A DNA stretch of 64,000 bases from Escherichia coli (GTDB lineage: Bacteria > Pseudomonadota > Gammaproteobacteria > Enterobacterales > Enterobacteriaceae), in the NCBI RefSeq assembly GCF_036507355.1, contig NZ_AP027877.1; one strand, 5' to 3'. The position numbers and the translations under genes are program-made. Every line of letters starts with the position of its first letter. The stretch's first letter is position 1. The notes beneath the pieces are model-generated. The model had not been told where the DNA came from. It ran no database searches and saw nothing but the letters and a program-made list of their open reading frames with translations. Of this stretch, positions 2,321 to 62,738 are shown piece after piece.

Positions 2321-3091
2321 TTATGCCGCTTTATGTGCATCTACCATGATGATATCACTGGTGAAAGAGCCATCATTCTGCAAGGCAAAATACGTTCTCA
2401 CCTCTGTCGATGCGCTCTGTTGGTAAATGCGAATAGCGTCTACTAACGCTTCTGGCGTACGCATTCTCGCGCCCCATGAAGAAAATTCCAGCGGTAACTT
2501 ATCTGTAATTAAATTATCAACTATCAGATTGGCTTCATTGATTAACCTCAACCACTCACCGCTGGCGTAGTTTCGTACGTGAGAGGTATCGCGTAATGCT
2601 TCTACCGTCTGTAACCAGATGTCGCGCACTGGGTGGCCCGGAGACATTACGTCCATCACAATCAGCCTACCGCCAGGTTTCAATATCCGGTTCACTTCAC
2701 GCAGTGCTGCACCAACATCATGCCAGTGATGGGCAGAATAACGGCTGATAACAATATCAAATGCGTTATCGGCAAATGGCAGACTTTCGGCATAACCCTG
2801 GCGGGTGGTGATATTTTTCAGTTGCCGGACTTCGGCAGCTTGTGCCACGACATCCAGCATTTGGGCAGATAAGTCATACGCCACCACCGTGCTCACGTTT
2901 TGCGCAGCGACAAAGCTGGCATGCCCTGCTCCGCAGCCCATATCAAGTACACTTGCATCAGGATAATCAGCCAGACACACCGCCAGGCGCTGTAAATCTC
3001 GTCCGGATGCATGTACGGTACTGGTCAGATATTCGCTGGCTTGAGAGCTAAACTGCTTTTCTACATGGTCATGGTGGGATTGTATTGTCAT
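2321..3091 (-). CDS. yafE: class I SAM-dependent methyltransferase
   Basis: 256-aa ORF, ATG start; motif I VLDMGCGAGH; position between yafD and mltD matches K-12 yafE. Confidence 0.85.
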   Translation of the reverse strand: MTIQSHHDHVEKQFSSQASEYLTSTVHASGRDLQRLAVCLADYPDASVLDMGCGAGHASFVAAQNVSTVVAYDLSAQMLDVVAQAAEVRQLKNITTRQGYAESLPFADNAFDIVISRYSAHHWHDVGAALREVNRILKPGGRLIVMDVMSPGHPVRDIWLQTVEALRDTSHVRNYASGEWLRLINEANLIVDNLITDKLPLEFSSWGARMRTPEALVDAIRIYQQSASTEVRTYFALQNDGSFTSDIIMVDAHKAA

Positions 3092-3168
3092 TGCGCTGTC
3101 CTTTTGTTATTTGAGTATAAAAGGGCAGCGCCAAACGTTGGTCTGCCCTGTGGCAGACCTGACATACC

Positions 3169-16312: not shown

Positions 16313-18031
16313 ATGCGTACTAGCCAATACCTGCTCTCCACTCTCAAGGAGACACCTGCCGACGCCGAGGTGATCAGCCATCAGCTGATGCTGCGCGCCG
16401 GGATGATCCGCAAGCTGGCCTCCGGGTTATATACCTGGCTGCCGACCGGCGTGCGCGTTCTGAAAAAAGTCGAAAACATCGTGCGTGAAGAGATGAACAA
16501 CGCCGGTGCAATCGAGGTGTCGATGCCGGTGGTTCAGCCAGCCGATTTGTGGCAAGAGAGTGGTCGTTGGGAACAGTACGGTCCGGAACTGCTGCGTTTT
16601 GTTGACCGTGGCGAGCGTCCGTTCGTACTCGGCCCAACTCATGAAGAAGTTATCACTGACCTGATTCGTAACGAGCTTAGCTCTTACAAACAGCTGCCGC
16701 TGAACTTCTATCAGATCCAGACCAAGTTCCGCGACGAAGTACGTCCGCGTTTCGGCGTCATGCGTTCCCGCGAATTCCTGATGAAAGATGCTTACTCTTT
16801 TCATACTTCTCAGGAATCCCTGCAGGAAACCTACGATGCAATGTATGCGGCCTACAGCAAAATCTTCAGCCGCATGGGGCTGGATTTCCGCGCCGTACAG
16901 GCCGACACCGGTTCTATCGGCGGCAGCGCCTCTCACGAATTCCAGGTGCTGGCGCAGAGCGGTGAAGACGATGTGGTCTTCTCCGACACCTCTGACTATG
17001 CAGCGAACATTGAACTGGCAGAAGCTATCGCGCCGAAAGAACCGCGCGCTGCTGCTACCCAGGAAATGACGCTGGTTGATACGCCGAACGCGAAAACCAT
17101 CGCGGAACTGGTTGAACAGTTCAATCTGCCGATTGAGAAAACGGTTAAGACTCTGCTGGTTAAAGCGGTTGAAGGCAGTAGCTTCCCGCTGGTTGCGCTG
17201 CTGGTGCGCGGTGACCACGAACTGAACGAAGTTAAAGCAGAAAAACTGCCGCAGGTTGCAAGCCCGCTGACTTTCGCGACCGAAGAAGAAATTCGTGCCG
17301 TGGTTAACGCCGGTCCGGGTTCACTGGGTCCGGTAAACATGCCGATTCCGGTGGTGATTGACCGTACCGTTGCGGCGATGAGTGATTTCGCTGCTGGTGC
17401 TAACATCGATGGTAAACACTACTTCGGCATCAACTGGGATCGCGATGTCGCTACCCCGGAAGTTGCGGATATCCGTAACGTGGTGGCTGGCGATCCAAGC
17501 CCGGATGGCCAGGGTACGCTGCTGATCAAACGTGGTATCGAAGTTGGTCACATCTTCCAGCTGGGTACCAAGTACTCCGAAGCACTGAAAGCCTCCGTAC
17601 AGGGTGAAGATGGCCGTAACCAAATCCTGACTATGGGTTGCTACGGTATCGGGGTAACGCGCGTAGTGGCTGCGGCGATTGAGCAGAACTACGACGAGCG
17701 CGGCATCGTATGGCCTGACGCGATCGCGCCGTTCCAGGTAGCGATTCTGCCGATGAACATGCACAAATCCTTCCGCGTACAAGAGCTTGCTGAGAAACTG
17801 TACAGCGAACTGCGTGCACAAGGTATCGAAGTGCTGCTGGATGACCGCAAAGAGCGTCCGGGCGTGATGTTTGCTGATATGGAACTGATCGGTATTCCGC
17901 ACACTATTGTGCTGGGCGACCGTAACCTCGACAACGACGATATCGAATATAAATATCGTCGTAACGGCGAGAAACAGTTAATTAAGACCGGTGACATCGT
18001 CGATTATCTGGTAAAACAGATTAAAGGCTGA
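16313..18031 (+). CDS. proS: prolyl-tRNA synthetase
   Basis: ORF track 16259..18031 begins at an upstream TTG; the ATG at 16313 ([20 protein letters not shown]...) gives the expected 572-aa protein. Confidence 0.93.
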
Positions 18032-18040
18032 TGCCAGAAA

Positions 18041-18068
18041 GGGTCCTGATTTCAGGGCCCTTTTTTAC
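18041..18068 (+). terminator. rho-independent terminator after proS
   Basis: Hairpin gggtcctgatttcagggccc followed by T7. Confidence 0.6.
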
Positions 18069-18390
18069 AGGGATTGTATAAAATGGATAAACCAAAGGCG
18101 CACTACCGCCTGTTTCTCCCCTGCTTTCTTTTGCTTTCGGCCTGCACCGTTGATATCAGACAACCAGACTCATCAGCCACAGCGGTAGATGCTGAGGCGA
18201 AAACATGGGCAGTCAAATTCCAGCATCAAAGCTCTTTCACCGAACAATCAATAAAAGAAATAACTGAAACCGATCTCAAACCCGGCGATTTGCTGTTCTC
18301 CTCAAGCCTGGGGGTAACCTCATTTGGTATCCGGGTATTCAGCACTTTGAGGTGTACTGGCAATAGCGGACACTACCATTTGTTCTTTTT

Positions 18391-19209
18391 TTAAGCAGCC
18401 ATCTGATGATATTTTTCCCTGAAGGCTGCCGGGGAGATATTCCCCAGACGAGAGTGACGACGCTGACGATTGTAGAAAATCTCAATGTATTCCCGTATTA
18501 CTGAGATGGCTTCATCCCGGTTATTAAAACGATAGTGGCTCAGGCTCTCATTTTTCAGCGTTCCCCAGAAGCTTTCCATCGGAGCGTTGTCGTAACAGTT
18601 ACCTTTACGCGACATTGATGTTTTCAGACCAAACTGCTCCTGTATGACCCGGTAATCGTATGCGCAGTACTGTGAACCTCGATCAGAGTGGTGGATTAGC
18701 CCGACAGGTGGGCGCTGGCTCCTGAGCGCCATAAACAGGGCTTTACCTGTCAGCTCTTTTGTCATGCGCTCTCCCATGGCGTAGCCGACAATTTCGCACG
18801 TATAAACATCTTTGATGCCAGCGAGGTACAACCATCCCTCCTGTGTGGCAACATACGTCAGGTCCGCCACCCAGACCTGATTTGGTGCTGTAGGAGCGAA
18901 CGTCTGGTTCAGCAGATTTGGCGCAACTGGCAGATTGTGGTTCGAGTTCGTAGTCGCTCTGAACTTGCGTTTCTGCTTACAGCGTAGCCTTAGCTCCTTA
19001 CGAAGACGTGCCAGTCGGTCACGACCAACGATGATGCCATTCTCTGCCAGCTCCGTCTGGAGCCGCCGGGTTCCATATGTTTCGCGAGTGCGGATATGTG
19101 CCACCTTAATCTCCAGTTTTAGCCGCTCATCACTTTGTTTTCTGTCTGAGGGTTCATGCTGTACCCAGTTGTAATAACCGCTCCTGGATACACCAAATAC
19201 CTGACACAT
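18391..19209 (-). CDS. IS3-family transposase OrfB (DDE integrase domain), expressed as OrfAB fusion by -1 frameshift
   Basis: 272-aa ORF with rve/DDE catalytic region (…HHSDRGSQYCAYDY… NCYDNAPMESFWGTLKNE…); coordinates are the ORF from first in-frame start, the true reading frame begins upstream at the slippery site. Confidence 0.85.
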   Translation of the reverse strand: MCQVFGVSRSGYYNWVQHEPSDRKQSDERLKLEIKVAHIRTRETYGTRRLQTELAENGIIVGRDRLARLRKELRLRCKQKRKFRATTNSNHNLPVAPNLLNQTFAPTAPNQVWVADLTYVATQEGWLYLAGIKDVYTCEIVGYAMGERMTKELTGKALFMALRSQRPPVGLIHHSDRGSQYCAYDYRVIQEQFGLKTSMSRKGNCYDNAPMESFWGTLKNESLSHYRFNNRDEAISVIREYIEIFYNRQRRHSRLGNISPAAFREKYHQMAA

Positions 19210-19244
19210 CGCTTCAATGGGAAATTGTTGTCGCCATTGTTCGA

Positions 19245-19547
19245 TTAACGCGTATTTTTCAGCGACTCCTGTGCAAAATACGCTGTTGCTTTTTTTAATA
19301 TATCTCGCTCAAGGCGAGCTTCATTTAACGCCTTACGCAGTTGCAGAATTTCAGATTCCAGTTCAGCCACCGTGCGGGAACCAGGAGTACCGAGCCCTTT
19401 TCTGGCGGCGGTAACCCATTGTCCTAAAGTGCCTTCAGGAAGAGATAATCGGGAAGCGCCTTCACTGATCGAAAGTTGATTTTCAAGAACCGTTCTGACA
19501 GCTTCGGCTTTGAACTCTTTAGAGTAACGTTGGGTTTTTCTGCTCAT
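19245..19547 (-). CDS. IS3-family transposase OrfA (HTH DNA-binding, leucine zipper)
   Basis: 100-aa ORF MSRKTQRYSKEFKAEAVRTV...; ends just after an A-rich slippery sequence. Confidence 0.85.
   Translation of the reverse strand: MSRKTQRYSKEFKAEAVRTVLENQLSISEGASRLSLPEGTLGQWVTAARKGLGTPGSRTVAELESEILQLRKALNEARLERDILKKATAYFAQESLKNTR
19287..19296 (-). other. programmed -1 ribosomal frameshift site of the IS (A-rich slippery sequence TTAAAAAAAG)
   Basis: OrfA codons tta aaa aaa gca (LKKA) lie where the orfB frame overlaps; typical IS3-family A AAA AAG-type motif. Confidence 0.6.
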
Positions 19548-20179
19548 TATTAGCTCCTTCTGATGCCATTCTATTTCAGGAAGGAGTGTCCGTTAAACTC
19601 AGGCTACCTCACTTCTTCCGTCAGTCATGTGGCTATCTATCTGGGTGATAATAACGTTGCAGAAGCGACGGGCGCTGGCGTCCAGATTGTTTCCCTTAAA
19701 AAAGCCATGAAGCACAGTGATAAGCTTTTCGTCTTACGAGTCCCGGACCTTACCCCGCAACAAGCCTCAGATATCGCCGCATTCGCCAATAAAATCAAAG
19801 ATAGCGGTTATAACTATCGCGGCATTGTCGAGTTCATTCCCTTTATGGTGACCCGCCAGATGTGCTCACTAAATCCGTTCTCCGAGGATTTTCGCCAACA
19901 GTGCGTCAGCGGCCTGGCGAAAGCGCAGTTAAGCAGTGTGGGCGAAGGAGACAAAAAGTCGTGGTTTTGTTCGGAATTTGTCACTGATGCATTTGCCAAA
20001 GCCGGGCATCCGCTTACGCTGGCGCAATCGGGCTGGATTAGCCCTGCCGATCTGATGCATATGCGTACTGGCGATGTCTCTGCGTTTAAGCCCGAAACGC
20101 AGTTACAGTATGTTGGGCACCTGAAGCCAGGGATTTATATCAAGGCGGGTCGCTTTGTTGGTTTGACCCGGTGATAAAG

Positions 20180-20300
<121 letters not shown>

Positions 20301-20373
20301 AAAACGTGCAAATTCAAAATGTTGAAATATATCCTTCTGGCCTGTTTTGCGTTTGTTTCTGTCTCAAGACGGG

Positions 20374-21084
20374 TTACTGCCCCAAACTACTGCAATCCTT
20401 GTTTGGGTAAAATTTACCTGCCGTATCGGGCGCTAATACTTTGGTTGGCGCACCGGTATCCGGATTAGCCTCAAGCGTAAAGTGACCTTCTACTGACAGT
20501 AACACCGGTTTTTCACTGTGACCGCGCGCAGCCAGGTAGCCACGCTCCAGCTCTGCGTTATTCGCTACCATGAAACGTTTTCCGGTCGCGCAATCAGTGA
20601 AGGTCGCCGCATCAGCCATATAAAAATACATGCCCCGCAGGGTCATCGGCGTCATGGGTAAACTGGATTGTGCCGGTTCCAGCGTATAGTTGAATTGCGA
20701 TTCAATCGGATTGCCTTCACGATCGAGCATCTCCAGCGCATCGCCTTTCGCCCGATAATATGACTTTTCACCTTTGCTGTCGGTTAATACCAGCTTGTCA
20801 GCGGTTCGCGCCCATGTACCGTAGGAAGCGAAGGAGGAAGGTTCTTCACGAGCACCGAGATAACGCTCATTCATCACCCATGTTCCGTCTTTTTCGAGGA
20901 ACAGAGAGGTTTCGATTCCTTCGCAATCGGCACACGGCAGCACGCCGCGCCAACTTTGCGGCATCGGTTTCAGTTCGGCAGCCTGCGCCGGAGAAAGCGT
21001 ATCGACTTCGGCCCGATTATTACAACCCATCAGAGTAAAGAGGCTGATTACAGCCATCGCTGTCACTATCGCTTTTTTCACCAT
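20374..21084 (-). CDS. nlpE: envelope-stress/copper-homeostasis outer-membrane lipoprotein NlpE (CutF)
   Basis: 236-aa ORF, ATG start; lipobox LFTLMGCNN; CxxC motif LPCADCEG. Confidence 0.92.
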   Translation of the reverse strand: MVKKAIVTAMAVISLFTLMGCNNRAEVDTLSPAQAAELKPMPQSWRGVLPCADCEGIETSLFLEKDGTWVMNERYLGAREEPSSFASYGTWARTADKLVLTDSKGEKSYYRAKGDALEMLDREGNPIESQFNYTLEPAQSSLPMTPMTLRGMYFYMADAATFTDCATGKRFMVANNAELERGYLAARGHSEKPVLLSVEGHFTLEANPDTGAPTKVLAPDTAGKFYPNKDCSSLGQ

Positions 21085-21097
21085 CCATTCCTTCTTT

Positions 21098-21520
21098 TTA
21101 TTCCTGACCGCTGCGTACTTTGCCGCGCATCGCCTTCACGCTTGATTTTTGTGCTTTCGATGCCAGCCTGCGCTCTTTCGATGCACGGGTGGGCCGCGTG
21201 GGTCGTCGGGCTTTTTGTTCTGTTGTTAAATCTTTAATCACTGCCACCAGCCGGGCCAGCGCCGCTTCGCGGTTCAGTTCCTGATTGCGGTATTCCTGTG
21301 CCTTAATGACAATTACGCCATCACTGCTGATCAAATGATGGCTGGCGGCGAGCAGACTCTCTTTGTAATACTCTGGCAGGCTGGATGCCCGAATGTCAAA
21401 ACGCAGATGAATGGCCGTTGAGGTCTTATTAACATGCTGCCCGCCCGCGCCCTGCGCACGAATGGCGGTGATCTCAAGCTCACCATCGGGAATAGCAACA
21501 TGTCGGGAAATCACAATCAT
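21098..21520 (-). CDS. arfB: peptidyl-tRNA hydrolase ArfB (YaeJ), alternative ribosome rescue factor
   Basis: 140-aa ORF with GGQ motif ([15 protein letters not shown]) and basic C-terminal tail. Confidence 0.93.
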
Positions 21521-22727: not shown

Positions 22728-24023
22728 CTAAGCGTTTCGCTGCCAGACAAAACTTATGCCATTCTCACCTTCAGCCACACCTTCTTGCGTCACAAATACC
22801 CCTGCCGCCGCAATCAGCGTTTCGCCATAAAACAGCAGTGGCGTGGTGTCACGTAGCCACGGCGGCACGCCCAGCTCTTGCCAGATTTTCTTTAGCTTAC
22901 GTCCGCCGTTACGCCCGACAATATGCAGCAATCCTGGCGCTTTGAAACGCACGCTGACCGCTTCGTCTGCACGCGGAGGGCGAATAGCACCTCCCGCATT
23001 AAGCTGTACACTTCCCAGCCCCGCCGGTAATTCCAGCGGTTGAAGCCACGTCTGCCACGGCACAATGTTTTCGCTTTGCCCGGTGACGGATTTAATCCAC
23101 CACAGTTGCGACTGATAGCGTCGGATTTCAAACGCGCCCAAACGTAAACAGGGGGAGGCATCTTCCCGCGCCAGCGCCACTTCCTGCCAGATCCTCACCA
23201 ACGCGTCGCGGGAAGGCATCGGTGCATTCTGCCCTGCCAGCCAGCGGCGGATAATCGCCGCGCGGCGGGCATCACTCATCGCCAGCATTGGCACAATCTG
23301 CAGCGTCCCCTGCGGCGATTGACAGTGTGCTAAATCATCCGCCAGCAGTTCATCCAACAGGCTCTCTTGTTCAGCACAAAGTGCGGCGCTGCGGGCCGTT
23401 GCTTCGGCAAAATGCGGCCAACGCTGCTGCAATAACGGCACTATGCGCAGGCGCAGAAAGTTACGATCATATGAGTCGTCCTGATTACTTTCGTCTTCAA
23501 TCCAGCGTAAACCATGCGCCAATGCCCACTGCTCCAGTTCCCCCCGCGTGCGGGCGAGCAACGGGCGGATAAGCCGTGTTCCGGCAAACTCCGAAACTTC
23601 CCCCATAGCCGAAAGCCCGGCAGGACCGCTACCGCGTTTTAGCGCCAGCAGAAAAGTTTCACATTGATCGTCGAGATGTTGCGCAGTGACCAGCACTTCA
23701 CCGGGTAACAGGGTACGAGCAAATGCCTGATAACGCGCCTGCCGCGCCTGGGCCTCAATGCCCAGTCCTTCTTGCGCAAGTTGCACGCGCTCGACCAACA
23801 GCGGCACCAGCCACTGTTGGCAGATGTTCTCGCAATGCATAACCCAGGCGTCGGCATTGGCACTTAAACCGTGATGCACATGAATAGCGCGCAGAGTGAC
23901 GCCCGGATTTTCCGCCCGCCACTGCACCAACTGATGCAGCAGAACGGTGGAGTCAAGCCCGCCGCTAAAGGCCACCAGAATCTGGCGTGAGGTGAGAAGT
24001 TGTCTTTTGAGCGTGAGTGTCAT
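22728..24023 (-). CDS. tilS: tRNA(Ile)-lysidine synthetase
   Basis: 431-aa ORF, ATG start; PP-loop ATPase motif SGGLDS. Confidence 0.92.
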
Positions 24024-62704: not shown

Positions 62705-62711
62705 TAATTTT

Positions 62712-62732
62712 GCCTCGCCCACCGGGCGAGGC
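62712..62732. terminator. bidirectional hairpin between convergent hemL and fhuB
   Basis: Inverted repeat gcctcgcccaccgggcgaggc. Confidence 0.6.
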
Positions 62733-62738
62733 ATTCTA

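What the first reader, a model, noticed from the sequence alone, without database searches (positions are those of the whole stretch)
18083..20174. Intact IS600-like (IS3-family) element splits the lipoprotein gene yaeF
This is the only accessory DNA in an otherwise K-12-colinear core region. A roughly 1265-bp element with IS3-type terminal inverted repeats (TGAGGT...) and a 3-bp CTT duplication sits inside yaeF, separating the lipoprotein signal and N-terminal region from the C-terminal part. Both transposase frames (100-aa OrfA, 272-aa OrfB) look intact, so the copy is probably still transposition-competent. An IS600-type element in the chromosome suggests a Shigella or IS-expanded E. coli lineage, and yaeF would be one more pseudogene of that reductive process.
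Basis: partly seen in the sequence, partly recalled or inferred. Interest (0 to 1): 0.5.

Follow-up and report, generated by a model that had tools for sequence, protein, structure and literature searches.

The report
IS600 insertion disrupting the yaeF gene
A well-known 1264-bp jumping gene (IS600) has landed in the non-essential lipoprotein gene yaeF of an E. coli/Shigella-type chromosome and inactivated it, which is an ordinary, lineage-specific event.

Summary
The element is window 18348-19611 (1264 bp, not 1265), with its transposase on the minus strand. It has 27-nt imperfect terminal inverted repeats (TGAGGT...ACCTCA) and a 3-bp CTT duplication.

It is 1263/1264 identical to copies annotated IS600 in Shigella sonnei 53G pINV. 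OrfA (100 aa) and OrfB (272 aa) are open. A -1 shift at A AAA AAA G gives a 385-aa OrfAB that matches the IS3 transposase model end to end.

Removing the IS plus one CTT restores a 274-aa YaeF, 263/274 identical to K-12. Close relatives (99.1-99.5% identical) carry exactly this empty site.

The insertion is absent from all 5,426 complete E. coli genomes searched. It is present in a near-identical draft assembly, so it is real and lineage-specific.

- The single difference from other copies is a private OrfB A169V change, so transposition competence is plausible but unproven.
- IS600 sequence occurs in 2,845 of 5,426 complete E. coli genomes, so it does not by itself indicate Shigella.
- The other 54 K-12 genes checked have no frameshift or stop codon (cdaR carries an in-frame 16-aa deletion), so there is no local sign of genome decay.

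This is an already known kind of feature and of low interest.

The parts
18083..18347 (+). yaeF 5' fragment: codons 1-88 plus the first base of codon 89. It holds the signal peptide, the lipobox L18-S19-A20-C21 and the KPGDLLF strand. As it stands it reads into the IS and stops at 18394 (103 aa from the ATG).
18345..18347 (.). Left copy of the 3-bp target-site duplication, CTT.
18348..19611 (-). Complete IS600 (IS3 family), 1264 bp, with the transposase genes on the minus strand, opposite to yaeF.
   Evidence: 1263/1264 identical to the IS600 copy of S. sonnei 53G pINV; 247 plasmid records cover at least 80% of it
18348..18374 (.). Terminal inverted repeat at the orfB-distal end (IRR in the element's own orientation).
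   Evidence: pair I1
19585..19611 (.). Terminal inverted repeat at the orfA-proximal end (IRL).
   Evidence: pair I1
19568..19596 (-). The only sigma-70-like promoter match in 17950-20400: TTAACG, 17-nt spacer, TAGAAT. It overlaps IRL and points into orfA. It is the likely resident transposase promoter (consensus match only).
19245..19547 (-). orfA, 100 aa, HTH_Tnp_1 DNA-binding domain. An AAGGAG Shine-Dalgarno sequence lies upstream of the ATG.
19289..19296 (-). Slippery run A AAA AAA G in the orfA frame, the inferred site of the programmed -1 frameshift that makes OrfAB. A 12-nt inverted repeat follows it (19250-19261 / 19272-19283).
   Evidence: pair I12; RefSeq notes 'programmed frameshift' on the same protein
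18391..19209 (-). orfB, 272 aa from its ATG. It has the rve integrase-core domain with D116, D176 and E212 (35 residues between the second D and the E).
18704..18704 (-). The single nucleotide that differs from other IS600 copies (T here, C elsewhere on the coding strand). It changes OrfB Ala169 to Val and is private to this copy.
19612..19614 (.). Right copy of the 3-bp target-site duplication, CTT.
19612..20174 (+). yaeF 3' fragment, codons 89-274 and the stop codon. It holds the putative catalytic His93 and Cys207. It has no signal peptide and no promoter-like site of its own.

Best explanation
A full-length copy of the IS3-family insertion sequence IS600 transposed into codon 88/89 of the chromosomal gene yaeF and duplicated the 3-bp target CTT.

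Shown here:
- the element, its ends and the duplication;
- its near-identity to IS600;
- its open frames;
- the exact empty site in relatives.

Inferred from established IS3-family biology (IS911, IS3, IS2, IS150):
- orfA is translated from a weak promoter in IRL.
- A programmed -1 ribosomal frameshift at A AAA AAA G fuses OrfA to the OrfB frame and gives the 385-aa DDE transposase OrfAB.
- OrfAB excises a copy as a circle with abutted ends (copy-out, paste-in) and integrates it with a 3-bp staggered cut.

Consequence for the host: yaeF is split. One piece is a 103-aa stub carrying the signal peptide and lipobox. The other is a promoterless, signal-less fragment carrying the putative catalytic His93 and Cys207. 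The lipoprotein enzyme is therefore very probably null.

No polar effect on other genes is expected, because nlpE converges on yaeF from the other side.
For: - Ends, inverted repeats and CTT duplication read directly and found by the repeat tool.
- 1263/1264 identity to the copy annotated 'IS3-like element IS600 family transposase' in S. sonnei 53G pINV; 782 plasmid records match at 99% or more.
- OrfA and OrfB are open. The fused OrfAB hits NCBIfam NF033516 (IS3 family transposase) over positions 1-369 of 369 at 413.5 bits against a cut-off of 160, as one stretch. Pfam finds HTH_Tnp_1, HTH_21 and rve. RefSeq marks the same CDS span (1157 nt) as 'programmed frameshift'.
- D116, D176 and E212 have the 35-residue D-to-E spacing.
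- The repaired ORF is 274 aa and hits NF008552 (YaeF family) over 1-274 of 274 at 529 bits against a cut-off of 279. It is 263/274 identical to K-12 with no gaps.
- Five relatives that are 99.1-99.5% identical over 8.5 kb carry the exact 59-nt repaired site. One of them encodes an identical YaeF.
- An independent draft assembly with 2 mismatches in 12.8 kb has the same yaeF/IS600 right-hand junction. Its yaeF remnant carries an extra GAG-to-TAG nonsense change, as expected for a dead gene.
- The only promoter-like site points into orfA. None faces the 3' yaeF fragment.
Against: - Nothing contradicts the insertion itself.
- Activity of this particular copy is untested. It carries a private A169V change next to the catalytic core.
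- The hairpin after the slippery site is not significantly more stable than shuffled sequence over the 116 nt folded (z = -1.03).
- Loss of YaeF function is inferred from topology, not measured. The biochemical role of YaeF is unknown.
- An in-frame ATG inside the IS (19563) could in principle start a 203-aa cytoplasmic fragment.
Confidence: 0.95

Rival explanations
1. The copy is structurally intact but transpositionally dead or crippled. On this reading it is a fixed relic rather than an active element.
For: The single difference from all other copies surveyed is non-synonymous: OrfB A169V, seven residues before catalytic D176. The 61-mer around it has no exact match in any of the 3,350 E. 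coli genome records and 719 plasmid records that match it.
Against: - Ala to Val is conservative.
- Both inverted repeats, both frames, the slippery site and the DDE residues are unchanged.
- With only one substitution in 1264 bp the copy is young.
Confidence: 0.2
2. The IS placement is an assembly artefact: a repeat collapsed or misjoined into yaeF.
For: IS elements are common sites of misassembly. The related draft contig (L013) ends in a confused IS600/IS30-like join.
Against: - A perfect 3-bp duplication flanks a complete element at a site whose empty form exists in relatives.
- An independent assembly shows the identical right-hand junction.
Confidence: 0.02
3. Loss of yaeF is selected (pathoadaptive or niche-adaptive) rather than neutral, and the IS is merely the tool.
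For: Independent yaeF frameshifts exist in other genomes that share the same NlpE: a 1-nt deletion at nt 550 (L003), a 4-nt deletion at nt 78 (L005, and L007 = CP000036.1), and a 1-nt deletion at nt 297 (L011).
Against: - The places shown by the look-up are chosen to differ in gene content, so lesions are over-represented.
- At least 5,421 of 5,426 complete E. coli genomes keep the region. All 15 rows listed, and the yaeF-spanning rows of the spread listing, are annotated yaeF.
- No phenotype is known for yaeF. Recurrent loss is equally expected for a dispensable gene under drift.
Confidence: 0.08
4. The split gene still yields activity. The 3' fragment would be translated from the in-frame ATG at 19563 inside the IS as a 203-aa cytoplasmic protein containing His93 and Cys207.
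For: An ORF 19563-20174 is open and in frame with the yaeF 3' part.
Against: - No outward promoter-like site was found.
- The fragment lacks the signal peptide, the lipobox and the conserved KPGDLLF strand, so export and folding are unlikely.
- The sister assembly has a nonsense mutation in this fragment.
Confidence: 0.03

Closest known systems
IS600 (IS3 family, IS3 group), first described in Shigella sonnei and common on pINV and in Shigella, EIEC and STEC chromosomes
   Same: - Length 1264 bp, TG...CA ends, 3-bp duplication.
- orfA/orfB arrangement with an A7G slippery site, and DD(35)E residues.
- 1263/1264 nt identical to the S. sonnei 53G pINV copy. RefSeq names the protein 'IS3-like element IS600 family transposase'.
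   Different: - One private nucleotide giving OrfB A169V.
- The insertion site in yaeF is absent from all 5,426 complete E. coli genomes searched.
IS911, IS3 and IS150, the experimentally studied IS3-family models for frameshift-dependent OrfAB and circle-mediated copy-out/paste-in transposition
   Same: Domain order HTH_Tnp_1, HTH_21, rve. A -1 frameshift window between orfA and orfB. A full-length match to the IS3 family transposase model.
   Different: These are different elements. The mechanism is transferred by homology and was not tested for this copy. The downstream stimulatory structure is only a predicted hairpin.
K-12 yaeF (b0193), a YaeF/YiiX-family permuted papain-like NlpC/P60 lipoprotein (Peptidase_C92)
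   Same: - The repaired ORF is 274 aa with no gaps, 96.0% identical.
- Same neighbours: proS upstream, nlpE convergent downstream.
- Full-length NF008552 match.
- The permuted order, His before Cys, agrees with the family description in PMC3142127.
   Different: Here the gene is interrupted after codon 88. There are eleven amino-acid differences, seven of them in the first 63 residues.
IS-mediated pseudogene formation in Shigella and EIEC (Hawkey et al. 2020, PMC7373316)
   Same: IS600 is one of the five IS expanded in all Shigella species, and it inactivates chromosomal genes.
   Different: [quoted passage not shown]
- The window shows one IS per 64 kb and no other broken gene, so membership of an IS-expanded lineage is not demonstrated.

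Membership tests
IS3 family insertion sequence | Two consecutive, partly overlapping frames (orfA in phase 0, orfB in phase -1) joined by a slippery A6G/A7-type motif to give OrfAB | tested here: met
   OrfA 19547-19245 and OrfB 19209-18391. A AAA AAA G lies in the orfA frame at 19296-19289. The -1 fusion gives 385 aa that match NF033516 over 1-369 of 369 in one stretch, 413.5 bits against a cut-off of 160.
IS3 family insertion sequence | DDE transposase with an rve (RNase H-like) core and about 35 residues between the second D and the E | tested here: met
   Pfam rve at E = 2.2e-25. OrfB D116, D176 and E212.
IS3 family insertion sequence | Imperfect terminal inverted repeats ending 5'-TG...CA-3' | tested here: met
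   Arms 18348-18374 and 19585-19611, 27 nt, 70% complementary, TGAGGT...ACCTCA.
IS3 family insertion sequence | Short (3-4 bp) direct target duplication | tested here: met
   CTT on both sides. Relatives have a single CTT at the exact empty site.
IS600 specifically | Near-identity in nucleotide sequence to the named element | tested here: met
   1263/1264 identical to the copy annotated IS600 in S. sonnei 53G pINV. GenBank entries for S. flexneri 301 pCP301 and pO157 label the same sequence 'IS600'. The ISfinder reference entry itself could not be reached with these tools.
IS600 specifically | Ability to transpose | not testable with these tools
   Only structural intactness can be shown. The copy carries a private A169V change.
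YaeF family permuted papain-like enzyme (host gene) | Full-length match above the curated cut-off of the equivalog model | tested here: met
   The repaired ORF matches NF008552 over 1-274 of 274, 529.1 bits against a cut-off of 279.
YaeF family permuted papain-like enzyme (host gene) | Conserved position between proS and nlpE | tested here: met
   K-12 annotation, colinearity and per-gene comparison.
YaeF family permuted papain-like enzyme (host gene) | Lipoprotein signal peptide with a lipobox cysteine | tested here: met
   Read directly from the sequence: MDKPKAHYRLFLPCFLLL-SAC, lipobox L18-S19-A20-C21, identical to K-12 at these positions. No dedicated predictor was available.
YaeF family permuted papain-like enzyme (host gene) | Permuted catalytic residues, with His upstream of Cys | tested here: inconclusive
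   SH93VAIYLG aligns to the His motif of LytE, and WFC207SEFV to the Cys motif of B. cereus PPNE 3kw0. The E-values are about 0.1. The residues are identical in K-12. The family description is in PMC3142127.
Shigella or IS-expanded E. coli lineage (source organism) | High IS density and many pseudogenes | tested here: inconclusive
   - One IS in 64 kb, and no stop or frameshift in the other 54 K-12 genes compared.
- Shigella chromosomes carry 229-348 IS (PMC7373316), which by my arithmetic predicts about 3-5 per 64 kb. This region is rich in essential genes, however.
- IS600 sequence is in 2,845 of 5,426 complete E. coli genomes.
- The closest complete E. coli genome is only 98.6% identical over 4.5 kb.
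- The organism names of the closest assemblies are not given by the tools.

The most novel reading that the evidence does not exclude
yaeF may be a recurrent target of inactivation in host-restricted E. coli/Shigella lineages. Four independent lesions are seen: this IS600 insertion, a 4-nt deletion in CP000036.1 (Shigella boydii Sb227, named from my own knowledge of the accession) and a second assembly, and two different 1-nt deletions elsewhere. Under this reading, loss of this uncharacterised outer-membrane permuted NlpC/P60 lipoprotein would be advantageous, as an antivirulence-gene-like loss, rather than neutral decay.
Probability: 0.07. Interest if true: 0.35.

Novelty: already known. Interest (0 to 1): 0.08.

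Why it matters
- It adds one lineage-specific pseudogene and one IS600 site to the catalogue. The junction (…ATTCAGCACTT|TGAGGTGTACTGG…) could serve as a clonal marker for a rare lineage. Only 8 contigs in the large assembly collection share its exact TilS protein.
- It does not reveal a new element, mechanism or function.
- The modest general point is that an IS600 copy alone is not evidence of Shigella ancestry, and that yaeF is evidently dispensable.

Tried and rejected
1. Exact-protein look-ups of the two yaeF fragments (103 aa and 203 aa) found nothing on record.
2. A scan of the 100,044 species-representative genomes for the 24-nt left junction gave no match. The source genome is therefore not a GTDB representative.
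3. The NlpE look-up returned ten genomes only about 97.8% identical, none with the insertion. This was useful only as negative controls and for spotting other yaeF lesions.
4. I tried to name the organism of the sister assembly GCA_905398585.1 through the literature and found no paper.
5. I looked for yaeF in the supplements of the Shigella IS paper and found no occurrence.
6. I considered the extra 197 bp at 2929-3124 as a second accessory insert. I rejected this because it is the intact 5' end of yafE, which K-12 has lost by a deletion between short repeats.
7. I considered an outward promoter driving the 3' yaeF fragment. No promoter-like site exists on the plus strand.
8. Rfam gave no family inside the IS. 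The fold of the frameshift region was not significantly stable.

Full report
**Observation.** Reading 17800-20500 and computing the junctions shows an element from 18348 to 19611.

- It starts TGAGGTGTACTGGCAATAGCGGACACT and ends AGTGTCCGTTAAACTCAGGCTACCTCA.
- The repeat tool reports these as 27-nt arms that are 70% complementary (pair I1).
- CTT lies immediately outside both ends (18345-18347 and 19612-19614).
- The flanks (…CACTT | IS | CTTCTT…) would also allow a 4- or 5-bp duplication with a shorter element. Two results settle the boundaries. Unrelated IS600 copies align over exactly positions 1-1264. The 59-nt sequence obtained by deleting 18348-19614 is found exactly in five related genomes.

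**Identity of the element.**

- Megablast against 72,556 plasmids gives 890 records with a match. Of these, 782 match at 99% or more and 247 cover at least 80% of the element. The best hits are 99.9% identical over 1-1264 and are annotated 'IS3-like element IS600 family transposase', for example on S. sonnei 53G plasmid A.
- A base-by-base comparison with that copy shows one difference, at window 18704.
- Older GenBank records for S. flexneri 301 pCP301 and pO157 label the same sequence 'IS600'.

**Coding capacity.** On the minus strand, orfA (19547-19245, 100 aa) and orfB (19209-18391, 272 aa) are open.

- The run A AAA AAA G lies in the orfA frame at 19296-19289. A -1 shift there yields a 385-aa OrfAB.
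- OrfAB matches NCBIfam NF033516 'IS3 family transposase' over model positions 1-369 of 369 in a single stretch, at 413.5 bits against a cut-off of 160. OrfA alone scores 48.6 bits and OrfB alone 333.8 bits.
- Pfam finds HTH_Tnp_1, HTH_21 and rve, plus rve_3 and rve_2.
- OrfB has D116, D176 and E212, with 35 residues between the second D and the E.
- A 12-nt inverted repeat follows the slippery site (pair I12). The 116-nt fold is not significantly more stable than shuffles (z = -1.03).
- The only sigma-70-like match in 17950-20400 lies at 19596-19568 on the minus strand, inside IRL and pointing into orfA.

**The private substitution.** The one difference (T at 18704) changes OrfB Ala169 to Val, seven residues before D176. 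A 61-mer centred on it has no exact match. All 3,350 matching E. coli records (5,891 places) and all 719 matching plasmid records (1,411 places) differ from it. The copy is therefore structurally intact, but it is not the allele whose activity can be assumed. I rate 'competent' as likely but unproven.

**The host gene.**

- Deleting the IS and one CTT gives a 274-aa ORF. It matches NF008552 'YaeF family permuted papain-like enzyme' over 1-274 of 274, at 529.1 bits against a cut-off of 279.
- It aligns to K-12 YaeF without gaps, 263/274 identical.
- The N-terminus carries a lipoprotein signal with lipobox L18-S19-A20-C21 (read from the sequence).
- Weak alignments place the family's His motif at SH93VAIYLG and the Cys motif at WFC207SEFV. 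This agrees with the permuted His-before-Cys order described for the YaeF/YiiX family (PMC3142127).
- The IS sits between codons 88 and 89. The export signal and the KPGDLLF strand are therefore separated from both catalytic residues.
- The 5' piece now ends in 15 IS-encoded residues. The 3' piece has no signal peptide and no promoter-like site. Loss of function is inferred, not measured.
- nlpE converges on yaeF from the far side, so I expect no polar effect on other genes.

**Empty site and lineage.**

- A look-up by the window's exact ProS protein returned five loci that are 99.1-99.5% identical to the window over 8.5 kb. All have an uninterrupted 274-aa yaeF and the exact repaired 59-mer. 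L016 differs by 1 nt in yaeF and by no amino acid.
- None of the 5,426 complete RefSeq E. coli genomes holds a place that covers at least 80% of yaeF::IS600. By contrast, 5,421 of them hold the flanking 4.5 kb.
- The left junction is absent from all GTDB species representatives.
- The window's exact TilS occurs on only 8 contigs. The one shown (GCA_905398585.1, L013) matches window 32023-19198 with 2 mismatches in 12,826 bp. It includes the same yaeF 3' fragment/IS600 IRL junction.
- One of those two mismatches turns a GAG codon of the yaeF remnant (window 19830) into TAG. This fits a gene already dead in this clade, although a single base could also be a sequencing error.
- The insertion is therefore real, recent and confined to a rare lineage.

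**Context.** The window is colinear with K-12 MG1655 234869..172183 at about 98.9% identity.

- Of 55 K-12 protein genes compared, only yaeF is broken.
- cdaR has an in-frame 48-bp deletion.
- yafE is longer than in K-12, because K-12 has lost 197 bp.
- There is thus no local sign of genome decay.
- IS600 sequence occurs in 2,845 of 5,426 complete E. coli genomes, with a median of one place. A chromosomal IS600 is not diagnostic of Shigella.
- Shigella chromosomes carry 229-348 IS (PMC7373316). By my own arithmetic that is roughly 3-5 expected per 64 kb, against one observed. This stretch is dense in essential genes, however.
- The closest complete E. coli genome is only 98.6% identical over 4.5 kb. 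The Shigella inference remains open.

**Mechanism.** By homology to IS911, IS3 and IS150 (established knowledge, not tested here):

1. OrfAB made by -1 frameshifting cuts one strand at an IS end and forms a figure-eight.
2. The figure-eight resolves to a circle with abutted inverted repeats. The abutted ends create a strong junction promoter.
3. The circle integrates with a 3-bp stagger.

The CTT duplication and the TG...CA ends are the footprints of this pathway.

**Verdict.** This is a correct and careful first-stage call about an ordinary event. A known IS sits in a dispensable gene, in a rare lineage. I rate it already known and of low interest.

The only mildly interesting by-product is that yaeF carries independent frameshifts in several other genomes. 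Those genomes were sampled in a way that enriches for such differences.

Noticed in passing
L003 (yaeF nt 550), L005 and L007 = CP000036.1 (nt 78), L011 (nt 297): Independent frameshift deletions (1, 4 and 1 nt) inactivate yaeF in other genomes that share the window's exact NlpE. With the IS600 insertion, yaeF has therefore been lost at least four separate times. The look-up favours places with differing gene content, so no frequency can be derived.
   Followed up: partly
L013 12827-13746 (end of contig CAJPYR010000020.1); corresponds to window 19198: In the sister draft assembly the IS600 sequence breaks off at window position 19198. It continues into about 826 bp ending in what I take, from memory, to be an IS30-type right end (...GATTGAATCTACA). 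After that, 94 bp of IS600 (window 19288-19195) are repeated. This is most likely a short-read assembly artefact at a repeat, or a second IS600 copy hit by another IS.
   Followed up: partly
L013 12194, equivalent to window 19830: The sister assembly has GAG to TAG in the yaeF 3' remnant. This is a second inactivating change in the already split gene.
   Followed up: partly
window 52734-53843 (cdaR, minus strand); deletion point near 52908-52922: cdaR has an in-frame 48-bp deletion relative to K-12 (369 aa against 385 aa), between short GCGCTGGCG-type repeats. It removes 16 residues (K-12 312-327) of the C-terminal part. The functional consequence is unknown.
   Followed up: partly
window 2929-3124 (yafE 5' end, minus strand; ORF 3091 down to about 2321): The window encodes a 256-aa YafE methyltransferase with its SAM-binding motif (LDMGCGAGH). 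K-12 lacks 197 bp here, between GCGCTGC repeats, and annotates a 207-aa protein with a different start. The K-12 gene is the altered one.
   Followed up: yes
window 51285-52094 (yaeI); also 22728-24023 (tilS) and 21101-21520 (arfB): YaeI is only 92.2% identical to K-12, TilS 95.8% and ArfB 95.7%. Most neighbours are 99-100% identical. These look like patches of divergent, probably recombined, alleles in a conserved region.
   Followed up: no
window 62705-62738 (fhuB-hemL intergenic): About 123 bp present in K-12 (173446-173600) are missing here. I guess this is a repetitive extragenic element difference.
   Followed up: no
L008 5961-6941: Another genome has an IS110-family transposase gene inserted between nlpE and yaeF. 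The REP-rich nlpE-yaeF spacer is therefore also an IS target.
   Followed up: no
window 20219-20295 (minus strand) and 45560-45669 (minus strand): Rfam matches to naRNA4 (REP-derived, just downstream of yaeF) and to CssrA ('chromosome-encoded Shigella sRNA A', in the rpsB-tsf spacer). Both lie in stretches that align colinearly to K-12, so they do not point to Shigella.
   Followed up: no
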